Sequence record: ON210137.1
Reading direction: 5' to 3' (one strand)
From: Escherichia phage EC150
DNA: 64,000 nucleotides
Below the pieces are notes generated by a model, which saw only the letters and a list, made by a program, of their open reading frames with translations, searched no databases and was not told the origin of the DNA. This document shows positions 1,929 through 61,891 of this stretch, one piece after another. Position numbers and translations under genes: made by a program. Each line of letters starts with the position of its first letter. The stretch's first letter is position 1.

Positions 1929-2177
1929 TGAATAAACGAACACTGTTTACGTGTTTTGAAGAATGGAATGTGTGCAATGGGTCGCTTTATGCGGCCTTTT
2001 GTCGTTTGGGTCGTGTTTTGCGATGGAATAATTATGATGAGGTGTTTTATTTATTGATTGTGCGGAAATATTTAGAAATATATTTCATAGGTCGTGTCTA
2101 TTGGTCCGTGGTGTTTGTTAGATTATATCTATGGATTGAAATTTTAGTGTCGTGAAACGTGGTGTTTGAACACATTT

Positions 2178-2540
2178 GATACGCCTAAAATACGGCTAAA
2201 AATTAAGCGTATCATGGCTGCAGGCCGCGTCGTTCCTGGATTCTTCTTTTTAAAATTGGTACACCCTTACGTCATGATACGTCATGGTTTTTTATCCGTA
2301 TCAGTGTACAGCCCTTGCCGCGCCTGGCTTGTACATTAATCTTACGGATGATACGGATAAAACTGGGCATCGTTATATATAAAACTCCAAAAATAAATAA
2401 ACTCCATTTTAAAAACATTTATATTAATTTTTTTCATATCCTCATACTTATGTTAATTTATATATTTAACGTATCATCCGTAAGATATAAGTAAAAACAA
2501 AGACTTGCGGCAATACGGATGATACGTCATGATACGCTTC
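2178..2540. repeat. Repeat locus A: inverted GATACGG/CCGTATC-type repeats (CTTACGGATGATACGGATAAAA at 2341-2362; inverse CGTATCATCCGTAAG at 2470-2484) flanking a ~105 bp AT-rich core
   Basis: Read directly; further copies at 2178-2196, 2208-2218, 2269-2304, 2511-2537. Confidence 0.6.
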
Positions 2541-2763
2541 AACCAGCCAGCAGCGGCTAAGTCATTGATTTGCATAACAAGCGGCGAAAGGGATGGATTT
2601 CTTTTATACGTATCAAACAGTACACCACGCACCACGGTCCGCTATTCATTCAGTACTATGATTTGTGTACGTTTACAGCCAATTTGAACATCAATCTGCA
2701 CTTGAATATAATGTTCATTCATTGTATAATTCACACTATTAATTTGCACTATGGGATTTGCAC

Positions 2764-3238
2764 TATGAGTCAAGATTATGTAGCAATGCCTGAAGACTTT
2801 GAAGACCCGCGATTTGCAGAGCATAATCAGGCATTATTCGATGAGTTCATTGACCTTGTTATTCAGGGCCATGACATGCGCGCAGCTTTTGCACTAGTAT
2901 TTGGCATGGAGGTTGCGACCGATAACTACACTGGCCAGCGAGTCCTCTGCACGCAACGCAATCCGTACTACAAGATGCGCTACAAAAAGCGTATGGAAGA
3001 GATGCCATTGAAGGAATTGTGGAGCGTAAAGAGTTCCATCCACAATTTAGTGAAGCTTGTGCGTGATCCAGAAGTCGCGGCGTCAGCCAAGCTTAATGCC
3101 ATTCGTGAACTGAATATCATCTACGGCATCACGATGATTGATGAGAATGGCAATAGTAAAATGGGCCGTTCCATGGACGATTTCTACAAGGATTTTGGAG
3201 AGGCAGCCAAAGAGGGTGAGCAATTCTCCCGCCACTAG
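2764..3238 (+). CDS. hypothetical protein (158 aa)
   Basis: In-frame ATG 2764 (MSQDYVAMPEDFED...) inside track ORF 2570..3238; upstream extension starts at TTG and is low-complexity; start codon overlapped by an ATTTGCACTAT copy. Confidence 0.5.
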
Positions 3239-3258
3239 CCAATTTGCACTATAAAACG

Positions 3259-3291
3259 GCCCTAGAACACATTTTCTCCACTTCTAGGGCC
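3259..3291. terminator. Perfect 10-bp stem hairpin (GGCCCTAGAA / TTCTAGGGCC, 13-nt loop) between convergent genes
   Basis: Inverted repeat read directly; 20 nt after stop of CDS 2764..3238; weak U-tract on minus strand only. Confidence 0.45.
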
Positions 3292-3666
3292 ATCGGTAAT
3301 ACGACGGGGAAGGTTACAACCATAAACGCGTTAGAAAGTGTATTATTATAAGTCATCTTTTAGTCACTTTACGTAACAATTTACGACCTTCCGCCGTCCA
3401 GTCGAACGACTCCACCAGCAGATTTGCACTATAACCTAAGACGATGCGCCCTTTCTCGTTATCGACCCGCCAACAAGTCTCGAATAGCATTCGATTTGCA
3501 CTATTAACTATCGCCGCAACGCGCGCTGGGTAAGCGCAATTTGCACTATGGTCGTAAAGGGATAAGGTGCGACCACTTCCGATGGACAACGTAGCGATGA
3601 GAATAAGCGTATTCATAAGCCACCAATTTGCACTATGAAAAGCGACCCCGAAGGGCCGCCATTCGA

Positions 3667-4293
3667 TTAGATGATCTGGAATGTGTATGACTTGTTGCCG
3701 AACTCGAAGTTCAAGCGCCCAGCTTCCTTAAGCTTCATGCGGAAGCGAATGTGCTTGCTATCCGGTAATCCCAGCGCGATGAAAGCTACGCGGACCGATT
3801 TGAACTCGCCTACACCCTCGACCATAACGCCGTTACGGGTGAGACGCTTTTGCGCCACTTCCTTATTATCCCAACTTTTTGCAATGCCTTCGCTATTCGA
3901 ACGGCGATGGGAAGAAGTTCCATTTTGCACTACGCAATTTGCACTATCGTTTAGGCCGCTCTTAACGAAGGCTTCATACTCTTCGTCGGTCATCGCGTCG
4001 AGTTCTTCCTGAGTCGGCTCAGACTTTTTAACGACCGCACGCGCCTTATGCGTTTTTACATCGCTGGGCACTTCCTCGCGCGGCTTCGCGTCGGGAATGG
4101 GCGATTCGTTGGACGGCTCATCGAGCGCGTTCAAGGACTCGATTAACGCGATTACGCGAGTCTCGGCGGTCCGGCGGTCCGCGAACTTTTTAATCGGCTT
4201 CGAACCGGAATTTGCGTTGTAAAATGCAACGAGGTCGGCGGTCTTAGTTGCGATAACGTCGCCGCTAGTCGAGAAGCGATTTAAGCTAACCAT
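3667..4293 (-). CDS. hypothetical protein (208 aa)
   Basis: ORF track; long ORF; no recognised motif. Confidence 0.5.
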   Translation of the reverse strand: MVSLNRFSTSGDVIATKTADLVAFYNANSGSKPIKKFADRRTAETRVIALIESLNALDEPSNESPIPDAKPREEVPSDVKTHKARAVVKKSEPTQEELDAMTDEEYEAFVKSGLNDSANCVVQNGTSSHRRSNSEGIAKSWDNKEVAQKRLTRNGVMVEGVGEFKSVRVAFIALGLPDSKHIRFRMKLKEAGRLNFEFGNKSYTFQII

Positions 4294-4373
4294 AATAAAC
4301 TCCTATTTGTTAGGGCGCTAAGCGCGAAAGAATTTTATTAAAGCGCCGCGCACGACGCTCTTAAAATCCTCTC

Positions 4374-4658
4374 TTACGCTTCGACGAGGGAGAAGGTTTC
4401 AAATTCTTCTTCGCCCATAACGAGTAAAATATTCCCGATTTCGACCGCTTCGAAGAAGTATCCGTTAACGTTTACTTCGAAGGCTTCGCGGTCCGATTCC
4501 GGTAACGCCGCGTAAAGTTTAAAAGCCTCGGCGACCGTTACCCCACCCGCTTCGATAGTTTGGTCTACGTTCGCGGCGTAGACTTCGGATAAATTTTGTT
4601 TTACGCCGTAGTTCTCGACGATAGCGTTACGGATAGAAGAAACGTTAAGAATAGCCAT
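4374..4658 (-). CDS. small acidic protein, paralog family member 1 (94 aa)
   Basis: ORF track; shares EVYAANVDQTIE / VNVNGYFFEAVEIG blocks with CDS 5292..5582; conserved promoter and leader upstream. Confidence 0.6.
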   Translation of the reverse strand: MAILNVSSIRNAIVENYGVKQNLSEVYAANVDQTIEAGGVTVAEAFKLYAALPESDREAFEVNVNGYFFEAVEIGNILLVMGEEEFETFSLVEA

Positions 4659-4726
4659 TTTAAACTCCTAGTTGGGAGAGGCGTTAACGACCTATTCGTT
4701 AACTCATCCCGTCCCGATATGAGTAC

Positions 4727-4756
4727 ATTATAATATAGTGTAGAAAAAAGTAAAGC
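4727..4756 (-). promoter_or_regulatory. sigma70-like promoter TTTACT-16-TATAAT for CDS 4374..4658
   Basis: Reverse complement of 4727-4756 reads TTTACTTTTTTCTACACTATATTATAAT; same architecture as the two promoters below. Confidence 0.5.
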
Positions 4757-4798
4757 ACTTTTTCGATAAAAATGCGATAAATTATTTTATCTTTTTCC

Positions 4799-4826
4799 TT
4801 TACTTCTTCGTACACTCGCGTATACT
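4799..4826 (+). promoter_or_regulatory. sigma70-like promoter TTTACT-16-TATACT for CDS 4882..5184
   Basis: CCTTTACTTCTTCGTACACT...TATACT read directly; followed by TATATCGAGACGGG leader element. Confidence 0.5.
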
Positions 4827-4881
4827 TGTTTATATCGAGACGGGCGATGGCCTTCCTTCTACTAGCATCGGGAGTTTTATT

Positions 4882-5184
4882 ATGACTACTTTAATCTCTT
4901 CTATCCTTACTTACGACGAAGACCGTTTAACCGTTCGTTCTCTTATCGCCGCCGTTAACGCGGAACTAGAATCCACCATCATTAAGGTCCGCGCGGTCGC
5001 TTTCGTCGGCCTTTCCTTCGACGATATTAAGTATGCCGAACGTAGCGCCATCCGCTTCGCGAAGACCGACGACGAAGCCGTTACCCTTATCGAGACGGTT
5101 ACGCCGCGCGGCGAAGCGTTAATTATCGTCGAGTATATCGACGTAGAGGGCGATAAGGCTTATAAATATTTTATCGCAAAATAA
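4882..5184 (+). CDS. small protein, paralog cassette member (100 aa), distant relative of the other two
   Basis: ORF track; GGGAG Shine-Dalgarno; shares the promoter/leader element. Confidence 0.55.
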   Translation: MTTLISSILTYDEDRLTVRSLIAAVNAELESTIIKVRAVAFVGLSFDDIKYAERSAIRFAKTDDEAVTLIETVTPRGEALIIVEYIDVEGDKAYKYFIAK

Positions 5185-5196
5185 CGAAAAAGTGCT

Positions 5197-5224
5197 TTAC
5201 TTCTTCGTACACTAAGACTATAAT
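5197..5224 (+). promoter_or_regulatory. sigma70-like promoter TTTACT-16-TATAAT for CDS 5292..5582
   Basis: GCTTTACTTCTTCGTACACT...TATAAT read directly; leader shares ATATCGAGAGGGG, GAATAGGTCG and CTCCCAACTAGGAG with the leader of CDS 4374..4658. Confidence 0.5.
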
Positions 5225-5291
5225 GTTTTATATCGAGAGGGGAGAGGAAGCGAATAGGTCGCCTTCCCGCCCTCCCAACTAGGAGAATATT

Positions 5292-5582
5292 ATGATTACT
5301 TTATCCGCTATCCGTTCCGCTCGCGTCGAGACTTCCGAAAACTCTAACGTATTTGGCGAAACCTTAGAGAGCGTTTATCTCTCTAACGTCGACGCGACTA
5401 TCGAATCTATTTATGAGCCGATCAACTTCCTCGACCTTTACAAGTATCGCGACGAGGACATCGTATCATCCCGCGTAACTATCAACGGCTTCGTCTATAC
5501 GATTACCGAAATCGGCGGCGAATATATCGCGGTCCCGCAACTCGGCGGCGAAGTAACTTATTTTAAAATCGTCTCCTTATAA
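5292..5582 (+). CDS. small acidic protein, paralog family member 2 (96 aa)
   Basis: ORF track; AGGAG Shine-Dalgarno; paralog of CDS 4374..4658. Confidence 0.6.
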   Translation: MITLSAIRSARVETSENSNVFGETLESVYLSNVDATIESIYEPINFLDLYKYRDEDIVSSRVTINGFVYTITEIGGEYIAVPQLGGEVTYFKIVSL

Positions 5583-5602
5583 TACCCTTCCGTTACTAAT
5601 AG

Positions 5603-5628
5603 GCCGCGCTTAGTCGCGGCTTTTCTTC
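5603..5628 (+). terminator. rho-independent terminator (GCCGCG-CTTAGT-CGCGGC then TTTTCTT)
   Basis: GC hairpin followed by T-tract, 20 nt after stop of CDS 5292..5582. Confidence 0.6.
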
Positions 5629-5746
5629 GTCCCTATCCCGATGCGCGTCTACGCGAAAACTCCTTTATCCTTCCCTTCGTCGTCGCATAATCTTCTTCGA
5701 GATGCTCCTTAGTTCGCATAACAGGTATTACGTTAAATGGAGAACA

Positions 5747-5820
5747 TCGCGTAAGTCCTTGTTTTATATAGACACCTATATCGGACCGTTAGGGCGGGTC
5801 GCGTAAGTCGTTGTTTTATA
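5747..5820. repeat. 22-bp direct repeat pair TCGCGTAAGTC(C/G)TTGTTTTATA (5747-5768, 5799-5820)
   Basis: Read directly; one mismatch; non-coding region. Confidence 0.55.
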
Positions 5821-5945
5821 AAGGCGCAAAACTTTCCCTTCGTTCCGAACTAAAACGAGAAATGTGCCGACCCTTCGCCCGAAAATAGTACGTATGCGAA
5901 ATTACATGCATCTCGAATAATCCCTCCCGATATTATCCTACACGC

Positions 5946-6008
5946 AATCATTCGCTTTCGAATCATTATGCTTCATATTGTTATGCGTCGAATCATTCGC
6001 TTTCGAAT
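5946..6008. repeat. 18-bp perfect direct repeat pair AATCATTCGCTTTCGAAT (5946-5963, 5991-6008)
   Basis: Read directly; non-coding region. Confidence 0.55.
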
Positions 6009-6096
6009 TGTAACGCTGGAAACTGTAACGGCGATTGATTATTGCGTTCGTGTGGTTTTTATGGCATGGGTCTTTTGGTGCGTTTTGGTACTTGAT

Positions 6097-6210
6097 GAAA
6101 TTTGCAGTACACTAATCAAAATACGACACATTTGGTCCACTAACTTTTCAAAGAAAAAGTCCTAGACAGTACCGTACTATTTTGTACCCACAGGAAATTT
6201 GCAGTACACT
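6097..6210. repeat. 17-bp perfect direct repeat pair GAAATTTGCAGTACACT (6097-6113, 6194-6210), related to the ATTTGCACTAT motif
   Basis: Read directly; shares ATTTGCA core with the 2.7-3.9 kb array. Confidence 0.55.
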
Positions 6211-17968: not shown

Positions 17969-18149
17969 AGAGGAAGTTATGCAAAAGATTATGCAGTCAC
18001 GTTACGTTAAAGTGCGAAATATTAATTGCAACTCTTTGCTTTCTTGGAAATGGGCTGTTTACGACTCGATGCTGATTGGCGTTTTAGTTGCTGGAGTGCT
18101 TTTTAATATTCACTGAATCGCCTGGCAATGGATTGCCGCAGGATTTCAC

Positions 18150-18425
18150 GCGTATAATGACGTATCATCCGTATCAAGTAAGTAGTTGTTTTCAAAAGAA
18201 TCTTACGGATGATACGGATGATACGCGTTGCCGCGATACTTTATAGGAATTCAAATAAATTAATTTAAAATTATATATCTAATTTAATTTTATTTTTTTA
18301 TAAACTCTTATATATGAAAAGTATCCGTATCATCCGTATCATCCGTAGCACACCAGTGATAGCGCGGCTTATACACCGATACGGATAAAAATACGCCTCA
18401 TTTTATCCGTATCATCCGTATCACA
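18150..18425. repeat. Repeat locus B: inverted arrays of GGATGATACG / CGTATCATCC units (CTTACGGATGATACGGATGATACG at 18202-18225; GTATCCGTATCATCCGTATCATCCGTA at 18321-18347) flanking a ~95 bp AT-rich core
   Basis: Read directly; shares the 17-mer CTTACGGATGATACGGA and TTTTATCCGTATCA with locus A at 2.3 kb. Confidence 0.6.
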
Positions 18426-18540
18426 CTAATTAAGGCGCGCGGCTATATCGGTTGTTATACATATTCAAACCATAATTATTGTTTGCCTAAGTTTTTTTCA
18501 TTAGATATAATACACAATACTTATTTGAGGGTGGATGCGA

Positions 18541-19953
18541 ATGCAAACGGCACGCGAAATTGACAAAAATGGATTCTTGACGATTGTGGGTTGTCCCATT
18601 TCGTCATTTGGCATTTTTGATTATTCTGCAGGTCAGGTTGGACTTGATGGTGATCCGAATCGCATCGTAAAAGTTTATCGCCCAGAGTCAGCGGTGAAAG
18701 ACCCCGAAGCGATAGATTCATTCAAAAATATCCCTTTCATCGACAATCACGAAATGCTTTCTGGATTCGAAGGTGATGAGGATAACACAGCACCCGAAGA
18801 GTATGGCGTTGATGGCGTTCTAACTGGCAATGTTTATTATGACAAGCCATGGATGCGCGGCGACCTTAAAGTTTTTAGCCGTCGTCTGAAGAAAGCCATC
18901 GATTCTGGAAAGGTTGACTTGTCTTTGGGCTATGACTGTGAATTCATCATACAGTCTGGAGAGTTTGACGGGCAGCCGTATGAAGTGGTACAGACAACTC
19001 TTCGCGGCAACCACATTGCTCTCGTGGACGTTGGTCGAGTACCAGGTGCACGGGTGCTGGATGGTCGTTGCTTTGACCATCTTTGTTTGACGACTGTAAC
19101 ACCATCCAACGAGGATTTAGACATGCCAAAACCGTTAAAAGGTAAAGCGCGTGATAATGCTGTTGAACAGCTGAAGTCGCTGATCCCTGCGCTCGAACAA
19201 TTTCTGAATGAAGAGAGCACCGAAGCTGCTCATCAGGACGAAGTTGAAGTGAAAGCAGAAGAGAAGGATTCAACCGAAGAACGTGAAGAAGTGATGGTTG
19301 ATCCAGAAGTCAAAGCAGAAGCTGAAGAGACTCCAGAAGGTGAAGAGAAGTTTGAAGTTGAAACTGAATCTCACGCTGGCGGCGAGCTTCCGCAACTGAT
19401 CAGCCAAATCGAAGCACTTATTGCAAAACTGAAAGGTGGCGCGGTAGGTGATGAAGAAGAAGTTGAAGCCGAAGTCAAAGACGAAGAAGTTGAAGTCAAG
19501 GCTGAAGATGTATCACCTTGCGACAAAGCTGAAGATGTGGTTAGCGGCCTGCAAAACAGCAACGTAAAGGGGGCTTCGGTCGAAAAAGATGACAAACCGA
19601 CAAAAGCGGCGAAAGCGTCGCCAGGTCCAGCAAAAGGGGAACACTCAATGGCATCTGATTCAGCAGTTGCTGCTTTCTACGCTGATTCTGCTCGTAAGAA
19701 TAGCCTCTACCAGCGCCTGTCTAAAGTTGTTGGTGCCTTTGATCATGCAACTATGGACTCCAAGTCCGTAGCGAAATATGGCGCTAAAAAGTTAGGCTTG
19801 AAGTGCGTTGATGGTGCTGAGTTTGACGTGGTGGATAATTATCTGCGCGGCGTTGAACACGGTCAAAAACAGCGTGTAGTCGCAAAACAAAAGGCTGCTG
19901 CGGATTCTGCAGCAACTGACGAAGCGTTTGAAGCTTGGTTGAAAGGGGAATAA
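18541..19953 (+). CDS. prohead protease / scaffolding fusion protein (putative)
   Basis: Globular N-terminal domain followed by long acidic Glu-rich coiled-coil region; immediately upstream of capsid genes; GAGGGTGG Shine-Dalgarno. Confidence 0.55.
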   Translation: MQTAREIDKNGFLTIVGCPISSFGIFDYSAGQVGLDGDPNRIVKVYRPESAVKDPEAIDSFKNIPFIDNHEMLSGFEGDEDNTAPEEYGVDGVLTGNVYYDKPWMRGDLKVFSRRLKKAIDSGKVDLSLGYDCEFIIQSGEFDGQPYEVVQTTLRGNHIALVDVGRVPGARVLDGRCFDHLCLTTVTPSNEDLDMPKPLKGKARDNAVEQLKSLIPALEQFLNEESTEAAHQDEVEVKAEEKDSTEEREEVMVDPEVKAEAEETPEGEEKFEVETESHAGGELPQLISQIEALIAKLKGGAVGDEEEVEAEVKDEEVEVKAEDVSPCDKAEDVVSGLQNSNVKGASVEKDDKPTKAAKASPGPAKGEHSMASDSAVAAFYADSARKNSLYQRLSKVVGAFDHATMDSKSVAKYGAKKLGLKCVDGAEFDVVDNYLRGVEHGQKQRVVAKQKAAADSAATDEAFEAWLKGE

Positions 19954-57828: not shown

Positions 57829-58911
57829 ATGGCTAGTTTAAGAGAAGAAGCAAAAATAATCGAAGAGTTTTTGACAGAACTCCAAAGAGGCATTCCAGAA
57901 GATGAACGCGTCATGACCGTGTTTGCGCCTGAAGCAACGGTGCAGACCGACGAGCGCGGCAAAAAGATTAACAGCAGCTTCTGGCCTAAGCCTTGGAAGC
58001 TTGGCAAGCCGCTGATGCAACATCAGAACGGTTACGCCTGCATAAGTTCAATGCGTAAGTCTCCCAACCCAAAGACAGGCGAGATGCGATACTGGCGCAC
58101 GGAATCGGCTTTCGGTCATGGCATGGCGATGATGGTCGACGACATCGGTCACGGTAAAGGGTCCAAAGGCGATTTAGATTTAGAGTTCTTTTTCGAGCGT
58201 CTGAAGCCAACCGTCATTGTTGAGACTTCACCGAACAACCACCAGCTGTGGTATTTCTTTAAAGACCCGATTGACCATCTTATCCAGTTCAAAGCATTCC
58301 TTGGGTCTTTCGTAAACATGGTACTCAAGAAGGGCGGCGACAACACGATTAAAGACGTGACGCGCGTGGGCCGTGTTCCTGGTTGCATCAACAACAAGCG
58401 TGTGACTCACGACGGCCCTTACAAATATGTCGATGAGAACGGCGACCCGTTCCGCTGCCGACTTGTCCATGCAGACTATTCTTTGCGATACACAATCGAA
58501 GAGATTTGCCAAGCCTTCGGTTTCCACGTCGTTATGCCGCAAAAGCGTGAAATTCAAATTGACGTTGACGAATACAAATATGATGCTGTTTGGTATAAAA
58601 TAGCCCAGCAAATCCTTTCGCGCAATAAGATGGGTGAAGGGTCCGATGGCGATGTTGTTGAAAACATGTCAGGTAAATGCCGCATCATCTGCCCTTGGGG
58701 TGAAGAGCACACCAACGGCGACCCATATGGCGCTTACTTTCGCGGCCCAATCCCTGGCGCTGAACATGAATTCGTTTTCGGTTGCGCTCACGACTGTCAC
58801 CGGAAAGGTGAAGGTAAGAAAGGCTGGACAGCTTTTGTTGAAGCAGTAGTCATGCCTTATATTGAGAATCAACTTGATATGATAAATCGTCGCGCAGGTG
58901 GCATAAAATAG
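57829..58911 (+). CDS. archaeo-eukaryotic primase (AEP)-type primase-polymerase with C-terminal Cys/His zinc-binding region (putative)
   Basis: AEP-like motifs: DxD-type MAMMVDDIGHG, His motif NNHQLWYFF, RVGRVPGCINNK; C-terminal CPWGEEH...CAHDCH. Confidence 0.5.
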   Translation: MASLREEAKIIEEFLTELQRGIPEDERVMTVFAPEATVQTDERGKKINSSFWPKPWKLGKPLMQHQNGYACISSMRKSPNPKTGEMRYWRTESAFGHGMAMMVDDIGHGKGSKGDLDLEFFFERLKPTVIVETSPNNHQLWYFFKDPIDHLIQFKAFLGSFVNMVLKKGGDNTIKDVTRVGRVPGCINNKRVTHDGPYKYVDENGDPFRCRLVHADYSLRYTIEEICQAFGFHVVMPQKREIQIDVDEYKYDAVWYKIAQQILSRNKMGEGSDGDVVENMSGKCRIICPWGEEHTNGDPYGAYFRGPIPGAEHEFVFGCAHDCHRKGEGKKGWTAFVEAVVMPYIENQLDMINRRAGGIK

Positions 58912-60220: not shown

Positions 60221-61891
60221 ATGTCAATTGAACATGACAATCTTCCAGAGGATACAGGTGATGAATTTGGTGCAATCTTTGACGAAATTCAAGATGCTGG
60301 TGTTTCAGAAGAAATGCAAGCGGCAGAGCAGCAAGGCACCAGAGCTAAAATCAGCCTCCAGCACAAGGCTGTTGAGAAAGATGCAGAGCGCATGGAATGC
60401 TACGGTGAAGAAGACTTGGTTGAAAGGGCACGTTTGCTCGCCTCACTTCAGGTAATCAAGTTCCCTCACTACAAACCGACGAAAGATGATTTTGTTCTTC
60501 AGGCGGACCGGACGAGTGACATGAACCGTTATGCGGTTTTCGACGCGTTGTTTGATAAGGGAAGTGGCGTTGTTCCATTCCCTCACAAAGATACTTTTCG
60601 TGGGCGCTTAGTCGACCATCGCGGCGAAACATTCACCGACCGGACGTTGGAAGTCACAGAGATAGTTGCCGCTGTCGACGCAGCAGGGCTGTCCAACCCA
60701 AACTCACGTCAGGTCGCTCAATCCTATAAGGAATGGGCCATGCGTTATCAGCGCGACGACCTGATGGACTTCTTCTACAAGAAGCTGCCTGAATGGGACG
60801 GTACTGCGCGCATTGAGAAATACCTTATCGAGCTATTCCGACCGTTCGATACAGAGTTAAACCGACAAATCGGTGTGTATTTTTGGCTATCGCTCTATAA
60901 CCGCCTGACCAACCCTGGCTGTCAAGCGCCAATCTCCATCGCGCTCATCGGCGGCCAGAACGCAGGGAAAAGTTATTTTAGCAAGCTGCTTTGCGAAGCT
61001 ATTATGAACGACCGCCACGCAACACCGATTCCGTTGAACTTGGCCGCGCAGAACTTCAACCCGTTCTTGCGAGCTATTACGGGTCGCTCAATTATCGCGA
61101 ACGTTGGCGAGATGACAGGCTTTAAAAAAGCTGACATCGAAAACATGAAAGCATTCCTGACTAAGACGGAAGATGACCTGGACTTCAAATTTGAAGACAC
61201 GCAGGTTAAACCACGCCAGTGGATTGCTATCATGGACGGCAACGAATACGCAGGTATGCAGCGTGACGACACGGGCAACCGTCGTGTGTACCCTATATTT
61301 GTTGGCCAACTCGCTGACAAGGACGGGCAACCGAACTGGTCCAAAGACTTCCAAGCTGACCTTTCCACTTTGAAAGAAGACGTTTGGCAGCTGATGGCTG
61401 AGTGCGCCGCATGGATGGAGAAGCACGGCGAAGCAGGTTACAATGCCTTTGTTGGTGAAACATCTCGCATGCTTACTGAGTTCAGCAAGAACGAAATGGA
61501 ACGTGCTCGCGGCGTTATCCGTGATGAGATGGTCGACAACGACCTTGTTGAAGTAGTCATTACCGCGCCTTATGACCGACATCACAGCGGACGCTGGCAC
61601 ATCACCAGTGGTGCAATTGCTATGGGATTCAGAGCTAAGTGCGGCAAGTCGCCTTTCTCACGTACCCTTGCGCCGCACATGTCGAAGCTTGGATTTGAGC
61701 CTGCGACCTATCGCAACCAGCGTGGTTACTTTACGCCGCTGATTAAGAATGAAGCAGGGGAATACATTTCTGACTTGATGACTATCTTAGCGTATCTTAT
61801 CCGCGACGAGTCTGACCCTGAAGATATTGAATTCTTGAAGAAGGTTATTGAGCGCAAACGTTCTTTAGGAAGAGATAAGGATGAATTCTGA
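60221..61891 (+). CDS. VirE-family / primase-associated P-loop NTPase (putative replicative helicase)
   Basis: Walker A IGGQNAGKSYFSKLL; Walker B-like WIAIMDGNEY; AGGAGG Shine-Dalgarno; adjacent to AEP primase. Confidence 0.55.
   Translation: MSIEHDNLPEDTGDEFGAIFDEIQDAGVSEEMQAAEQQGTRAKISLQHKAVEKDAERMECYGEEDLVERARLLASLQVIKFPHYKPTKDDFVLQADRTSDMNRYAVFDALFDKGSGVVPFPHKDTFRGRLVDHRGETFTDRTLEVTEIVAAVDAAGLSNPNSRQVAQSYKEWAMRYQRDDLMDFFYKKLPEWDGTARIEKYLIELFRPFDTELNRQIGVYFWLSLYNRLTNPGCQAPISIALIGGQNAGKSYFSKLLCEAIMNDRHATPIPLNLAAQNFNPFLRAITGRSIIANVGEMTGFKKADIENMKAFLTKTEDDLDFKFEDTQVKPRQWIAIMDGNEYAGMQRDDTGNRRVYPIFVGQLADKDGQPNWSKDFQADLSTLKEDVWQLMAECAAWMEKHGEAGYNAFVGETSRMLTEFSKNEMERARGVIRDEMVDNDLVEVVITAPYDRHHSGRWHITSGAIAMGFRAKCGKSPFSRTLAPHMSKLGFEPATYRNQRGYFTPLIKNEAGEYISDLMTILAYLIRDESDPEDIEFLKKVIERKRSLGRDKDEF

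What the first reader, a model, noticed from the sequence alone, without database searches (positions are those of the whole stretch)
2178..2540. Repeat locus A: inverted GATACGG-type repeat arrays bracketing a 105-bp AT-rich core
CTTACGGATGATACGGATAAAA (2341-2362) and its inverse CGTATCATCCGTAAG (2470-2484) flank an AT-rich core, with extra GATACG/CGTATC units at 2178-2196, 2208-2218, 2269-2304 and 2511-2537. A second locus at 18.1-18.4 kb has the same architecture and shares a 17-mer. The geometry (regulator sites around an AT-rich, easily melted core) fits either a regulated promoter with activator/repressor sites or a replication origin; a MITE-like insertion is a less likely alternative because the cores differ between loci.
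Basis: seen in the sequence. Interest (0 to 1): 0.6.

Follow-up and report, generated by a model that had tools for sequence, protein, structure and literature searches.

The report
Paired origin-like repeats; one is genome end
Two matching non-coding DNA elements in this E. coli phage look like replication origins of a type known from staphylococcal pathogenicity islands (SaPIs), and the packaging enzyme cuts inside one of them to make the end of the virus chromosome, so in this phage family the genome end lies inside an element built like a replication origin.

Summary
The repeats are real and strongly non-random. 17 of the 22 TGATACG heptamers in the 64-kb window lie in two non-coding loci: A (2177-2617) and B (18161-18423).

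The window is a Wifcevirus, an E. coli myovirus. A and B are colinear paralogs. Each has at least two 9-bp units on each side, pointing in opposite directions. The ~100-bp core of each is the most AT-rich and least stable DNA in the window.

The same two-locus design sits at the same two positions, upstream of terS and upstream of the prohead protease gene, in Kylevirus, Pbunavirus, Myosmarvirus and a Salmonella phage. Each lineage has its own unit sequence.

The design matches the published SaPI replication origin. The phage encodes a near-full-length structural homolog of SaPI1 Rep1 whose C-terminus has winged-helix topology.

Separately, the left physical end of virion DNA, which is the left boundary of the ~3.7-kb direct terminal repeat, lies inside the core of locus A (AACTCC^ATTTT, 2405/2406). 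Myosmarvirus and Pbunavirus termini fall in the equivalent locus.

Best reading: two iteron/AT-core/iteron origins, one of which also carries the terminase cut site. The main rival is that the units are TerS-binding sites. I found no description of these loci in the papers searched.

The parts
2177..2216 (.). Locus A, outermost left units: TGATACGCC and AAATACGGC (+), then AAGCGTATCATG (-)
   Evidence: Conserved in the window-type Wifceviruses.
2268..2303 (.). Locus A, middle left units: TACGTCATGATACGTCATGG (+, 9-bp period), then TTTTATCCGTATCA (-)
   Evidence: D4, I9. TATCCGTA is invariant in all 9 aligned genomes.
2340..2362 (+). Locus A, inner left arm: TCTTACGGATGATACGGATAAAA, two 9-bp units pointing towards the core
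   Evidence: TCTTACGGATGATACGGAT is invariant in 9 Wifceviruses even though the DNA to its left falls into three unrelated sequence families.
2363..2469 (.). Locus A, AT-rich core (85% AT): putative DNA-unwinding element that also contains the terminase cut site
   Evidence: second least stable 100-bp window in the 64 kb.
2399..2410 (+). Cut-site motif AAACTCC^ATTTT. Virion DNA begins at 2406, about 6 bp from the dyad centre of the inner arms
   Evidence: WFC nucleotide 1 equals window 2406 exactly. Mansfield (PhageTerm), WFH, Ro157lw and SP13 records start at the same base. AACTCCATTTT is invariant in 9 genomes and in a relative whose helicase is 75% identical. The motif is absent from locus B.
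2470..2484 (-). Locus A, inner right arm: CGTATCATCCGTAAG, units pointing towards the core
   Evidence: I1.
2512..2617 (.). Locus A, outer right units: AATACGGATGATACGTCATGATACGCTT (+, three units, 2512-2540) and TTTTATACGTATCAAA (-, 2602-2617)
   Evidence: Nearly invariant across 9 genomes.
2406..6075 (+). Direct terminal repeat, present once in this window
   Evidence: Mansfield's DTR is 3673 bp by PhageTerm (PMC6753283). Its last base maps to window 6075, and the Ro157lw record ends at 6075. The WFC record ends at 6156 instead.
2702..2730 (+). Sigma-70-like promoter (TTGAAT, 17-bp spacer, TATAAT) ahead of terS
   Evidence: Invariant.
2765..3238 (+). terS, small terminase, 157 aa
   Evidence: phmmer against PDB: 7UXE small terminase, E = 1.3e-32. 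I assign 7UXE to phage E217 from memory; the tools did not confirm that attribution. Mansfield annotation.
18161..18176 (-). Locus B, outer left units: CGTATCATCCGTATCA
18200..18225 (+). Locus B, inner left arm: ATCTTACGGATGATACGGATGATACG
   Evidence: I1: 22-nt perfect inverted repeat with 18326-18347.
18226..18322 (.). Locus B, AT-rich core: putative DNA-unwinding element, with no cut motif
   Evidence: least stable 100 bp in the window. Nearly invariant in 7 genomes. No record terminus falls here.
18323..18349 (-). Locus B, inner right arm: ATCCGTATCATCCGTATCATCCGTAGC, three units
18378..18423 (.). Locus B, outer right units: GATACGGATAAAAATACGCC (+) and TTTTATCCGTATCATCCGTATCA (-)
   Evidence: I9, D1.
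18483..18511 (+). Sigma-70-like promoter (TTGCCT, 17-bp spacer, TATAAT) ahead of the prohead protease gene, whose ORF runs 18535-19953
   Evidence: Mansfield annotation.
60221..61891 (+). Candidate trans-acting partner: Rep1/VapE-type SF3 self-loading helicase (556 aa) whose predicted C-terminus (about residues 436-504) has winged-helix topology
   Evidence: Pfam PF05272, E = 1.6e-28. phmmer to 7PDS, SaPI1 Rep1 with DNA, E = 4e-11. AlphaFold model pLDDT 85 with a helix-strand-helix-helix-strand-strand C-terminus. Foldseek top hit 7PDS, E = 4e-17, 479 aligned columns.

Best explanation
Loci A and B are two paralogous copies of an iteron / AT-rich core / iteron element of the SaPI-origin type. 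Short 9-bp units (TGATACGGA-like) sit in several layers on both sides of a ~100-bp easily melted core. The innermost units on the two sides point in opposite directions.

I infer that a phage-encoded sequence-specific protein binds the units. The most likely candidate is the Rep1/VapE-type self-loading helicase encoded at 60221-61891, acting through its C-terminal winged helix. Under this model one hexamer loads on each side, melts the core and starts bidirectional replication.

Locus A has a second job, and this part is shown rather than inferred. The terminase makes its sequence-specific initiating cut inside the A core, between 2405 and 2406 in AACTCC^ATTTT. That cut creates the left end of virion DNA and the left boundary of the 3.7-kb direct terminal repeat. 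Locus B lacks the CTCC motif and is not a terminus, so I read it as an origin only.

What is shown:
- The repeats, their clustering and their symmetry.
- The paralogy of A and B.
- Conservation of the two-locus design across lineages, with lineage-specific units.
- The terminus position inside locus A.
- The presence of a Rep1-like helicase.

What is inferred:
- That Rep, rather than TerS or another protein, binds the units.
- That either locus fires as an origin.
For: 1. Architecture. At least two units lie on each side of an AT-rich centre and point in opposite directions. PMC9371898 gives this arrangement as the conserved feature of SaPI origins.

2. Melting potential. The two cores are the two least stable 100-bp stretches in the 64 kb.

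3. A matching initiator. The 556-aa protein is PF05272 and hits SaPI1 Rep1 (7PDS) by sequence at E = 4e-11. By fold, 7PDS is the top hit over almost its whole length (E = 4e-17; the next family is at 1e-7). The model's C-terminus has winged-helix topology. The last ~115 residues are the least conserved part of a 40-sequence alignment.

4. Position relative to rep. The A-type locus lies directly downstream of this helicase gene, as a SaPI origin does, in Pbunavirus, in Myosmarvirus and in two integrase-bearing chromosomal islands.

5. Parallel change of units at both loci. Wifcevirus uses GATACGGAT. Kylevirus PA1 uses ATAACCGTT. Pbunavirus uses TAATTTGG-type units. Salmonella phage PCSE1 uses ATATCGGC / GCCGTTATAT. 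Myosmarvirus uses CGAAAAG-type units. This argues for one co-evolving trans-acting factor per lineage.

6. Terminus in locus A.
- The records of WFC, WFH, Mansfield, Ro157lw and SP13 all start at window 2406.
- In Myosmarvirus, the MTx start and the MyoSmar DTR boundary, both from PhageTerm, fall at the left edge of the equivalent core.
- Pbunavirus Ab27 nucleotide 1, a fixed read termination reported in PMC4482731, lies between the arms of the equivalent locus.

7. Orientation-correct Chi sequences cluster just inside locus A in PA1 and Hera. PA1 has none in that orientation beside its locus B; Hera's locus B was not scanned.
Against: - No binding or replication data exist for any member of this phage group.
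- In this Wifcevirus the rep gene is about 8.5 kb from locus A, by my own coordinate arithmetic, rather than adjacent. It is about 6 kb away in Kylevirus.
- terS is adjacent to locus A in every lineage and in the islands, so gene adjacency cannot separate Rep from TerS as the binder.
- The units here are 9 bp with a 9-bp period, whereas SaPI iterons are 5-6 nt.
- I know of no precedent for a terminase cut inside an origin's melting region.
- Cumulative GC skew in this window shows no signal at either locus. A published Pbunavirus skew analysis points to the replication-gene region instead.
- The high conservation of the B core may only reflect low divergence of the whole downstream segment.
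Confidence: 0.5

Rival explanations
1. The units are small-terminase (TerS) recognition sites. Locus A would then be a classical pac/cos-type packaging site built like SPP1 pacL-pacC-pacR or P1 pac, with repeated boxes on both sides of the cut. TerS rings would wrap or loop the AT-rich, bendable core and present it to TerL. Locus B would be an uncut second TerS site, for example a synapsis partner as in the T4 'twin-ring pac synapsis' model, or a TerS sink or regulator.
For: - The cut lies at the centre of the arrays.
- terS lies immediately downstream of locus A in all five phage lineages and in both chromosomal islands.
- The TerS is a clear homolog of the solved small terminase 7UXE. The review PMC9611059 describes E217 TerS as a decamer and discusses repeated contacts flanking the cut in SPP1 and two-site synapsis in T4.
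- Terminus positions in three genera fall in the A-type locus.
Against: - E217 TerS showed no appreciable DNA binding in vitro (PMC9611059).
- This model does not explain why a second, uncut copy is kept at a fixed position in every lineage examined.
- It also does not explain why both cores are the least stable DNA in the genome.
- The A-specific conserved sequence is the cut motif, not the units.
Confidence: 0.25
2. The arrays are operator or activator sites for a phage transcription factor that co-regulates the two promoters downstream of them, the terS promoter and the prohead protease/capsid operon promoter. On this reading the position of the terminus is incidental.
For: Each locus is followed 190-240 bp downstream by a near-consensus sigma-70 promoter-like site. 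Both downstream genes are late or packaging functions.
Against: - There is no good promoter match in either core.
- The arrays are centred 250-350 bp upstream of the promoters, and the paralogy stops before them.
- The chromosomal islands keep the locus between rep and terS.
- This model does not explain the precise cut at the dyad centre or the extreme AT-richness of the cores.
Confidence: 0.07
3. Locus B is a DNA-entry pause or stop signal, like the injection stop signal of phage T5, or a nucleoid-protein or partition-type binding site, and locus A merely shares the motif.
For: The T5 injection stop region is rich in direct and inverted repeats. This comes from my own knowledge plus the abstract of bioRxiv 10.1101/866236 seen. 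Locus B lies about 22% of the way into the virion DNA from the left end.
Against: There is no evidence of two-step injection in this group. The same element occurs as a single copy in non-phage islands between rep and terS. The symmetric, inward-facing arrays around a meltable core are not a known feature of such signals.
Confidence: 0.03
4. The loci are a MITE-like or other mobile insertion, or a chance repeat.
For: Terminal inverted repeats flank an AT-rich core.
Against: - There are only two copies, and they sit at the same two syntenic positions in five diverged lineages with lineage-specific units.
- I saw no target-site duplications, though no dedicated search for them was run.
- There is no third cluster in the ~4 kb of genome missing from the window.
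- The clustering is far beyond chance.
Confidence: 0.01

Closest known systems
SaPI replication origin with its Rep self-loading helicase (Ubeda et al. 2007 and 2012, as summarised in PMC9371898)
   Same: Short repeated units lie on both sides of an AT-rich centre, with at least two per side pointing in opposite directions. The unit sequence is element-specific. The locus sits immediately downstream of rep in Pbunavirus, Myosmarvirus and the chromosomal islands. The phage helicase is a near-full-length structural homolog of SaPI1 Rep1, and its C-terminus has winged-helix topology.
   Different: Units are 9 bp with a 9-bp period rather than 5-6 nt. The arrays form several alternating layers. 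There are two copies per genome. In Wifcevirus the locus is about 8.5 kb from rep. The core of one copy is also the terminase cut site. No binding or replication has been shown.
Phage P4 ori plus crr (two iteron loci bound by the alpha primase-helicase). This comparison rests on my own knowledge and was not checked here.
   Same: Two separated cis loci share the same short iterons. The initiator is an SF3 primase/helicase-family protein with a C-terminal DNA-binding domain.
   Different: P4 crr is a pair of 120-bp direct repeats rather than a symmetric AT-core element, and neither P4 locus is a genome end. Whether both loci are needed in cis here is unknown.
SPP1 pacL-pacC-pacR and P1 pac packaging sites (PMC9611059 for SPP1; my own knowledge for P1)
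   Same: Repeated short elements lie on both sides of a central region where terminase makes the initiating cut, and the site is adjacent to terS.
   Different: Packaging here yields a fixed 3.7-kb direct terminal repeat in Wifcevirus rather than headful permutation. There are no GATC/Dam elements as in P1. A second, uncut paralog exists. TerS binding is untested, and it was negative for the E217 homolog.
T7 secondary origins (phiOL, phiOR) next to the terminal repeat, and models in which replication through the repeat duplicates it. This comparison rests on my own knowledge.
   Same: An origin-like element lies at the boundary of a direct terminal repeat, which could couple replication to end formation.
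   Different: T7 origins are RNA-polymerase promoter plus AT-rich elements with no iterons or Rep, and the T7 cut is not inside the origin.
SV40 and papillomavirus core origins (PMC1779811 abstract, seen)
   Same: Inverted initiator-binding sites and AT-rich DNA serve assembly of two SF3 helicase hexamers.
   Different: [quoted passage not shown]

Membership tests
SaPI-type Rep/iteron replication origin | At least two iterons on each side of an AT-rich region, pointing in opposite directions | tested here: met
   Locus A: 2340-2362 (+) against 2470-2484 (-). Locus B: 18200-18225 (+) against 18323-18349 (-). Cores are 85% AT. The criterion comes from PMC9371898.
SaPI-type Rep/iteron replication origin | The element encodes a Rep-family self-loading helicase with a C-terminal winged-helix domain | tested here: met
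   Window 60221-61891: PF05272; 7PDS by sequence, E = 4e-11, and by fold, E = 4e-17 over 479 columns. The winged-helix assignment is my reading of the predicted secondary-structure order at 436-504; that domain was not fold-searched on its own.
SaPI-type Rep/iteron replication origin | The origin lies immediately downstream of rep | tested here: not met
   In this window rep ends at 61891 and locus A is about 8.5 kb further on around the genome; this distance is my own coordinate arithmetic, not a tool result. The feature is met in Pbunavirus LS1, Myosmarvirus and two chromosomal islands.
SaPI-type Rep/iteron replication origin | Rep binds the iterons specifically and melts the AT region; the locus supports Rep-dependent replication | not testable with these tools
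   Needs EMSA or footprinting, a plasmid origin assay, or marker-frequency analysis.
Terminase packaging-initiation site (pac/cos type) | A physical end of virion DNA maps inside the site | tested here: met
   Five GenBank records begin at window 2406. Mansfield's ends come from PhageTerm (PMC6753283). The WFC paper reports a ~3.7-kb terminal repeat found during sequencing but does not state the method. I do not know how the WFH, Ro157lw and SP13 starts were set. Myosmarvirus and Pbunavirus termini fall in the equivalent locus. No raw reads of this isolate were available.
Terminase packaging-initiation site (pac/cos type) | The site lies next to or inside the small terminase gene | tested here: met
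   terS (2765-3238) starts 359 bp to the right of the cut. The same arrangement holds in all lineages examined.
Terminase packaging-initiation site (pac/cos type) | TerS binds the repeated elements | not testable with these tools
   The literature reports no appreciable DNA binding by the homologous E217 TerS in vitro (PMC9611059).
P1 pac | Hexamer elements containing GATC, whose Dam methylation controls cutting (my own knowledge) | tested here: not met
   The units, TGATACGGA and its variants, contain no GATC.
Regulated sigma-70 promoter with flanking operators | -35 and -10 hexamers within the core between the arrays | tested here: not met
   The best matches inside the cores score 9 of 12 and have poor -10 elements; the number of sites found is no higher than in shuffles.
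MITE / mobile element | Dispersed copies at non-syntenic sites, with target-site duplications | tested here: not met
   There are two copies only, at conserved syntenic positions across five lineages. Target-site duplications were not searched for specifically.
Known structured RNA | A match to an Rfam family | tested here: not met
   No hit in either locus at E <= 1.

The most novel reading that the evidence does not exclude
Replication initiation and packaging initiation are physically coupled. The terminase would cut specifically inside the core of an origin that the Rep helicase has loaded onto and melted. Firing of that origin would send a fork through the adjacent 3.7-kb segment and so duplicate the terminal repeat that each packaged genome needs. 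Locus B would be the packaging-silent twin that drives bulk replication. The same rep / origin-pac / terS cassette would be what satellite-like chromosomal islands carry in order to hijack phages of this group.
Probability: 0.2. Interest if true: 0.8.

Novelty: new variant of a known kind. Interest (0 to 1): 0.6.

Why it matters
This group includes Pbunavirus, among the Pseudomonas phages most used for personalised therapy (PMC11990801), and Wifcevirus, reported to replicate unusually fast (same paper).

For this group the replication origin is unknown: the only published suggestion I found rests on GC skew (PMC12390725). The packaging signal is also unknown, reports on the termini conflict, and the solved TerS showed no appreciable DNA binding in vitro (PMC9611059).

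These two loci give concrete, testable candidates for both cis-acting sites. They also name a candidate initiator and offer a possible explanation for where the ends come from.

If confirmed, the findings would help three things:
- rational genome rebooting and engineering of these therapeutic phages;
- predicting their termini from sequence alone;
- recognising satellites that carry the same cassette.

Tried and rejected
- **Promoter in the core.** Scanned and rejected.
- **Structured RNA.** Rfam found nothing in either locus.
- **GC skew as origin evidence.** It is uninformative here and follows gene orientation.
- **Extra constraint on the locus B core.** It is nearly invariant in 7 genomes, but the protease gene downstream is equally invariant. 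I therefore do not count this as evidence of special constraint.
- **A second, pan-lineage motif (TTGCCGCG / CGCGGCAA) flanking the arrays.** It appeared by eye in all genera, but these 6-7-mers are common throughout the window (about 50 each), so I do not claim it.
- **A copy of the cut motif at the right boundary of the terminal repeat.** None is present.
- **Gene adjacency to decide between Rep and TerS.** Both genes flank the locus in Pbunavirus, Myosmarvirus and the islands, so this is undecidable.
- **A hypervariable C-terminal domain in the helicase.** The C-terminus is the least conserved part but still aligns at about 35% identity between Wifcevirus and Pbunavirus. This is suggestive only.
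- **Transcription-start data for Pbunavirus 14-1 (PMC10914365).** They could have tested for promoters in the equivalent loci, but the supplementary tables are not held.
- **Pbunavirus PS44 as a comparator.** The end of its record does not continue into the left arm, and another paper suspects that a 68.8-kb Pbunavirus genome, which I take to be PS44, is misassembled. I used LS1 and Ab27 for locus A instead.

Full report
**Observation**

CTTACGGATGATACGGATAAAA lies at 2341-2362 and its inverse at 2470-2484. They bracket a 107-bp AT-rich core. Further GATACG-type units lie outside them, and the array extends to 2617.

A second locus at 18161-18423 has the same plan, with longer perfect arms: a 22-nt inverted repeat 100 nt apart. 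The repeats are not chance. All nine exact GATACGGAT copies in the 64 kb are in these two loci, as are 17 of the 22 TGATACG heptamers. The unit recurs with a 9-bp period. Each locus has several layers of alternating orientation:
- Locus A: (++)(-)(++)(-)(++) core (--)(+++)(-)
- Locus B: (--)(++) core (---)(++)(--)

The two cores are the two most AT-rich (85%) and thermodynamically least stable 100-bp windows in the whole window.

**What the genome is**

The window is about 93% identical to Wifcevirus phages, E. coli and Shigella myoviruses such as WFC, WFH, ECML-117 and Mansfield. These are distant relatives of the Pseudomonas Pbunavirus (PB1-like) phages (PMC11990801).

Locus A lies just upstream of the small terminase gene terS (2765-3238). 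That protein matches the solved small terminase 7UXE at E = 1.3e-32. Locus B lies between a 45-aa ORF that follows the portal and head-morphogenesis genes and the prohead protease gene.

**The genome end is inside locus A**

The WFC record begins at window 2406 with an identical 40-mer. The Mansfield, WFH, Ro157lw and SP13 records begin at the same base. Mansfield's ends were set by PhageTerm, which predicted a 3673-bp direct terminal repeat (PMC6753283). WFC and WFH were reported with terminal repeats of about 3.7 kb (PMC6563267).

Position 2406 is in the AT-rich core, about 6 bp from the dyad centre of the inner arms, in the sequence AACTCC^ATTTT. The other repeat boundary maps to window 6075 for Mansfield and Ro157lw, and to 6156 for WFC. 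No GATACG units and no copy of the cut motif occur there.

**Conservation within the genus**

I aligned locus A from nine Wifceviruses.
- The DNA to the left of the inner left arm falls into three unrelated sequence families.
- TCTTACGGATGATACGGAT, TATCCGTA and AACTCCATTTT are nevertheless invariant.
- Everything to the right of the cut is highly conserved.
- A more distant relative, whose helicase is 75% identical, keeps GATACG-type units and the exact TTAACTCCATTTTGAA.

Locus B is 92-99% identical in all 28 records. Its core and right half are nearly invariant, but so is the adjoining protease gene, so I draw no conclusion from that.

In ECML-117-type genomes, locus A and locus B align colinearly through the arms and the core. 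B lacks the CTCC of the cut motif. A and B are therefore paralogs. No third cluster exists in the ~4 kb of genome missing from the window.

**Conservation across lineages**

The two-locus design, one locus upstream of terS and one upstream of the prohead protease, recurs in four other lineages. Each has its own unit.

| Lineage | Unit |
|---|---|
| Pantoea phage PA1 (Kylevirus) | ATAACCGTT, 9-bp period, inverted across a ~100-bp AT core |
| Pbunavirus (PS44, LS1, Ab27) | TAATTTGG-type |
| Salmonella phage PCSE1 | ATATCGGC / GCCGTTATAT |
| Myosmarvirus (Hera) | CGAAAAG-type; long identical stretches between its two loci |

Parallel change of the unit at both loci argues for a single co-evolving DNA-binding protein in each lineage.

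Termini in other genera also fall in the A-type locus:
- **MTx (Myosmarvirus).** Its first base, and the 3559-bp repeat boundary of MyoSmar, both set by PhageTerm (PMC6753285 for MyoSmar), lie at the left edge of the Myosmarvirus core.
[quoted passage not shown] It lies between the left and right elements of the Pbunavirus locus.

In PA1 and Hera, Chi sequences in the orientation that would protect a left end cluster just inside locus A: 7 in 1.6 kb and 4 in 1.1 kb. PA1 has none in that orientation beside its locus B; Hera's locus B was not scanned.

**What binds the units**

Two candidates flank the locus.

1. **TerS.** Its gene is adjacent to locus A everywhere. However, the E217 homolog showed no appreciable DNA binding in vitro (PMC9611059).

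2. **The 556-aa protein at 60221-61891.**
   - It is a VapE-like SF3 helicase (PF05272).
   - It matches SaPI1 Rep1 (PDB 7PDS) by sequence at E = 4e-11.
   - In a confident AlphaFold model (pLDDT 85), its best structural match is 7PDS over nearly the whole chain (E = 4e-17, against 1e-7 for the next family).
   - Its C-terminus has winged-helix topology (helices 436-448, 463-474 and 480-489; strands 459-462, 493-497 and 500-504). This is also the least conserved region of the family alignment.

SaPI Reps are self-loading initiator-helicases. Their C-terminal winged helix recognises iterons placed immediately downstream of rep, with an AT-rich centre and at least two iterons on each side pointing in opposite directions. 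Two hexamers are thought to load, one on each side (PMC9371898). That description fits loci A and B.

In Pbunavirus, in Myosmarvirus and in two integrase-bearing islands of Cupriavidus and Caballeronia, the A-type locus lies directly downstream of this helicase gene and directly upstream of a terS homolog. In Wifcevirus and Kylevirus, 6-8.5 kb of small genes separate rep from locus A.

**Interpretation**

The best-supported reading is that A and B are two copies of a Rep/iteron/unwinding-element origin, and that locus A additionally carries the terminase cut site that makes the left genome end. My confidence in the separate claims is:

| Claim | Confidence |
|---|---|
| The terminus lies in locus A | about 0.9 |
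| The arrays are selected protein-binding sites | about 0.95 |
| Rep is the binder and the loci are origins | about 0.55 |
| TerS is the binder | about 0.25 |

The origin reading explains the second, uncut copy and the extreme instability of both cores. The TerS reading explains the central cut and the invariable linkage to terS. The two readings are not exclusive at locus A.

A promoter in the core, a structured RNA and a mobile element are not supported (synteny). I found no paper describing these loci. For Pbunavirus the origin has only been guessed from GC skew, and reports on the termini conflict (PMC12390725).

**Limits**

- No raw reads of this isolate were available, and no binding or replication data exist.
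- The terminus is transferred from close relatives by exact sequence identity at the site.
- The comparisons with P4 ori/crr, P1 pac and the T7 secondary origins rest on my own knowledge, not on tool results.
- The attribution of PDB 7UXE to phage E217 is also from memory.

Noticed in passing
L011 19861-21433 (Pantoea phage PA1); L018 14701-15797 (Serratia phage Hera, opposite strand): Exact Chi octamers (GCTGGTGG) cluster just inside the locus-A-type element, in the orientation that would stop RecBCD entering from that end: 7 in 1.6 kb in PA1 and 4 in 1.1 kb in Hera. PA1 has none in that orientation next to its locus B; Hera's locus B was not scanned. The Wifcevirus window has only one such site, at 3412.
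   Followed up: partly
L020 6001-8854 (Cupriavidus pauculus contig); L021 6001-8859 (Caballeronia sp. contig): Integrase-bearing chromosomal islands carry the cassette rep (VapE-like helicase), then ~650 bp of non-coding DNA with inverted 9-bp unit arrays, then a terS homolog (36% identical to the window TerS, E = 2e-31). The units are CCTTAAGTG / CACTTAAGG in L020 and GTAACTC / GAGTTAC in L021. These look like phage satellites of this phage group.
   Followed up: partly
window 1975-2170, 2620-2640 and 6040-6095: The flanks are strand-asymmetric. Left of locus A lie GT-rich motifs (TGGGTCG..., CGTGGTGTTTG twice), and their complement (ACACCACGCACCACGG) lies to the right, forming an outermost inverted layer. 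A similar GT-rich stretch (GTGTGGTTTTT...GGGTCTTTTGGTGCGTTTTGG) sits exactly at the right boundary of the terminal repeat. The other genera show the same GT-rich left and CA-rich right flanks around locus A.
   Followed up: no
window 2742-2767: A tandem direct repeat, ATTTGCACTATG twice, lies immediately upstream of the terS start codon and overlaps it. There are three copies in the relative L022 (15190-15220). It may be an operator or a translational control element for terS.
   Followed up: no
window about 2100-2340 and about 18100-18240: Both loci are mosaic junctions. Left of the inner left arm of locus A, nine Wifceviruses fall into three unrelated sequence families. At locus B, sequence diversity drops from about 20 to about 1-5 variable sites per 100 bp exactly at the boundary between the left arm and the core. 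This may indicate recombination hot spots.
   Followed up: partly
window 6075 versus 6156: The right boundary of the terminal repeat differs by 81 bp between records: Mansfield and Ro157lw map to 6075, WFC to 6156. Either the boundary is not sharp, or one determination is imprecise.
   Followed up: no
window 2316-2325, 2504-2512, 18133-18142, 18228-18236, 18361-18368, 18434-18441; also in L011, L012, L014, L017, L018: TTGCCGCG-type motifs lie left of the cores and CGCGGCAA-type motifs right of them, next to the unit arrays in every genus examined. These 6-7-mers are common throughout the window (about 50 each), so significance is not established.
   Followed up: partly
L012 / L013 (Pseudomonas phage PS44, NC_028939.1): The record is 68.9 kb, and its last bases do not continue into the left arm of the locus-A equivalent. 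The gene order between terS and terL is also shorter than in LS1. This fits the suspicion in PMC12390725 that a 68.8-kb Pbunavirus record, which I take to be this one, is duplicated or misassembled.
   Followed up: no
window 57829-58911: A separate RepB-type (RSF1010-like) primase gene (PF16793, E = 4e-36) lies near the Rep1-like helicase gene. Primase and helicase are therefore split, as in SaPI1 Pri and Rep.
   Followed up: no
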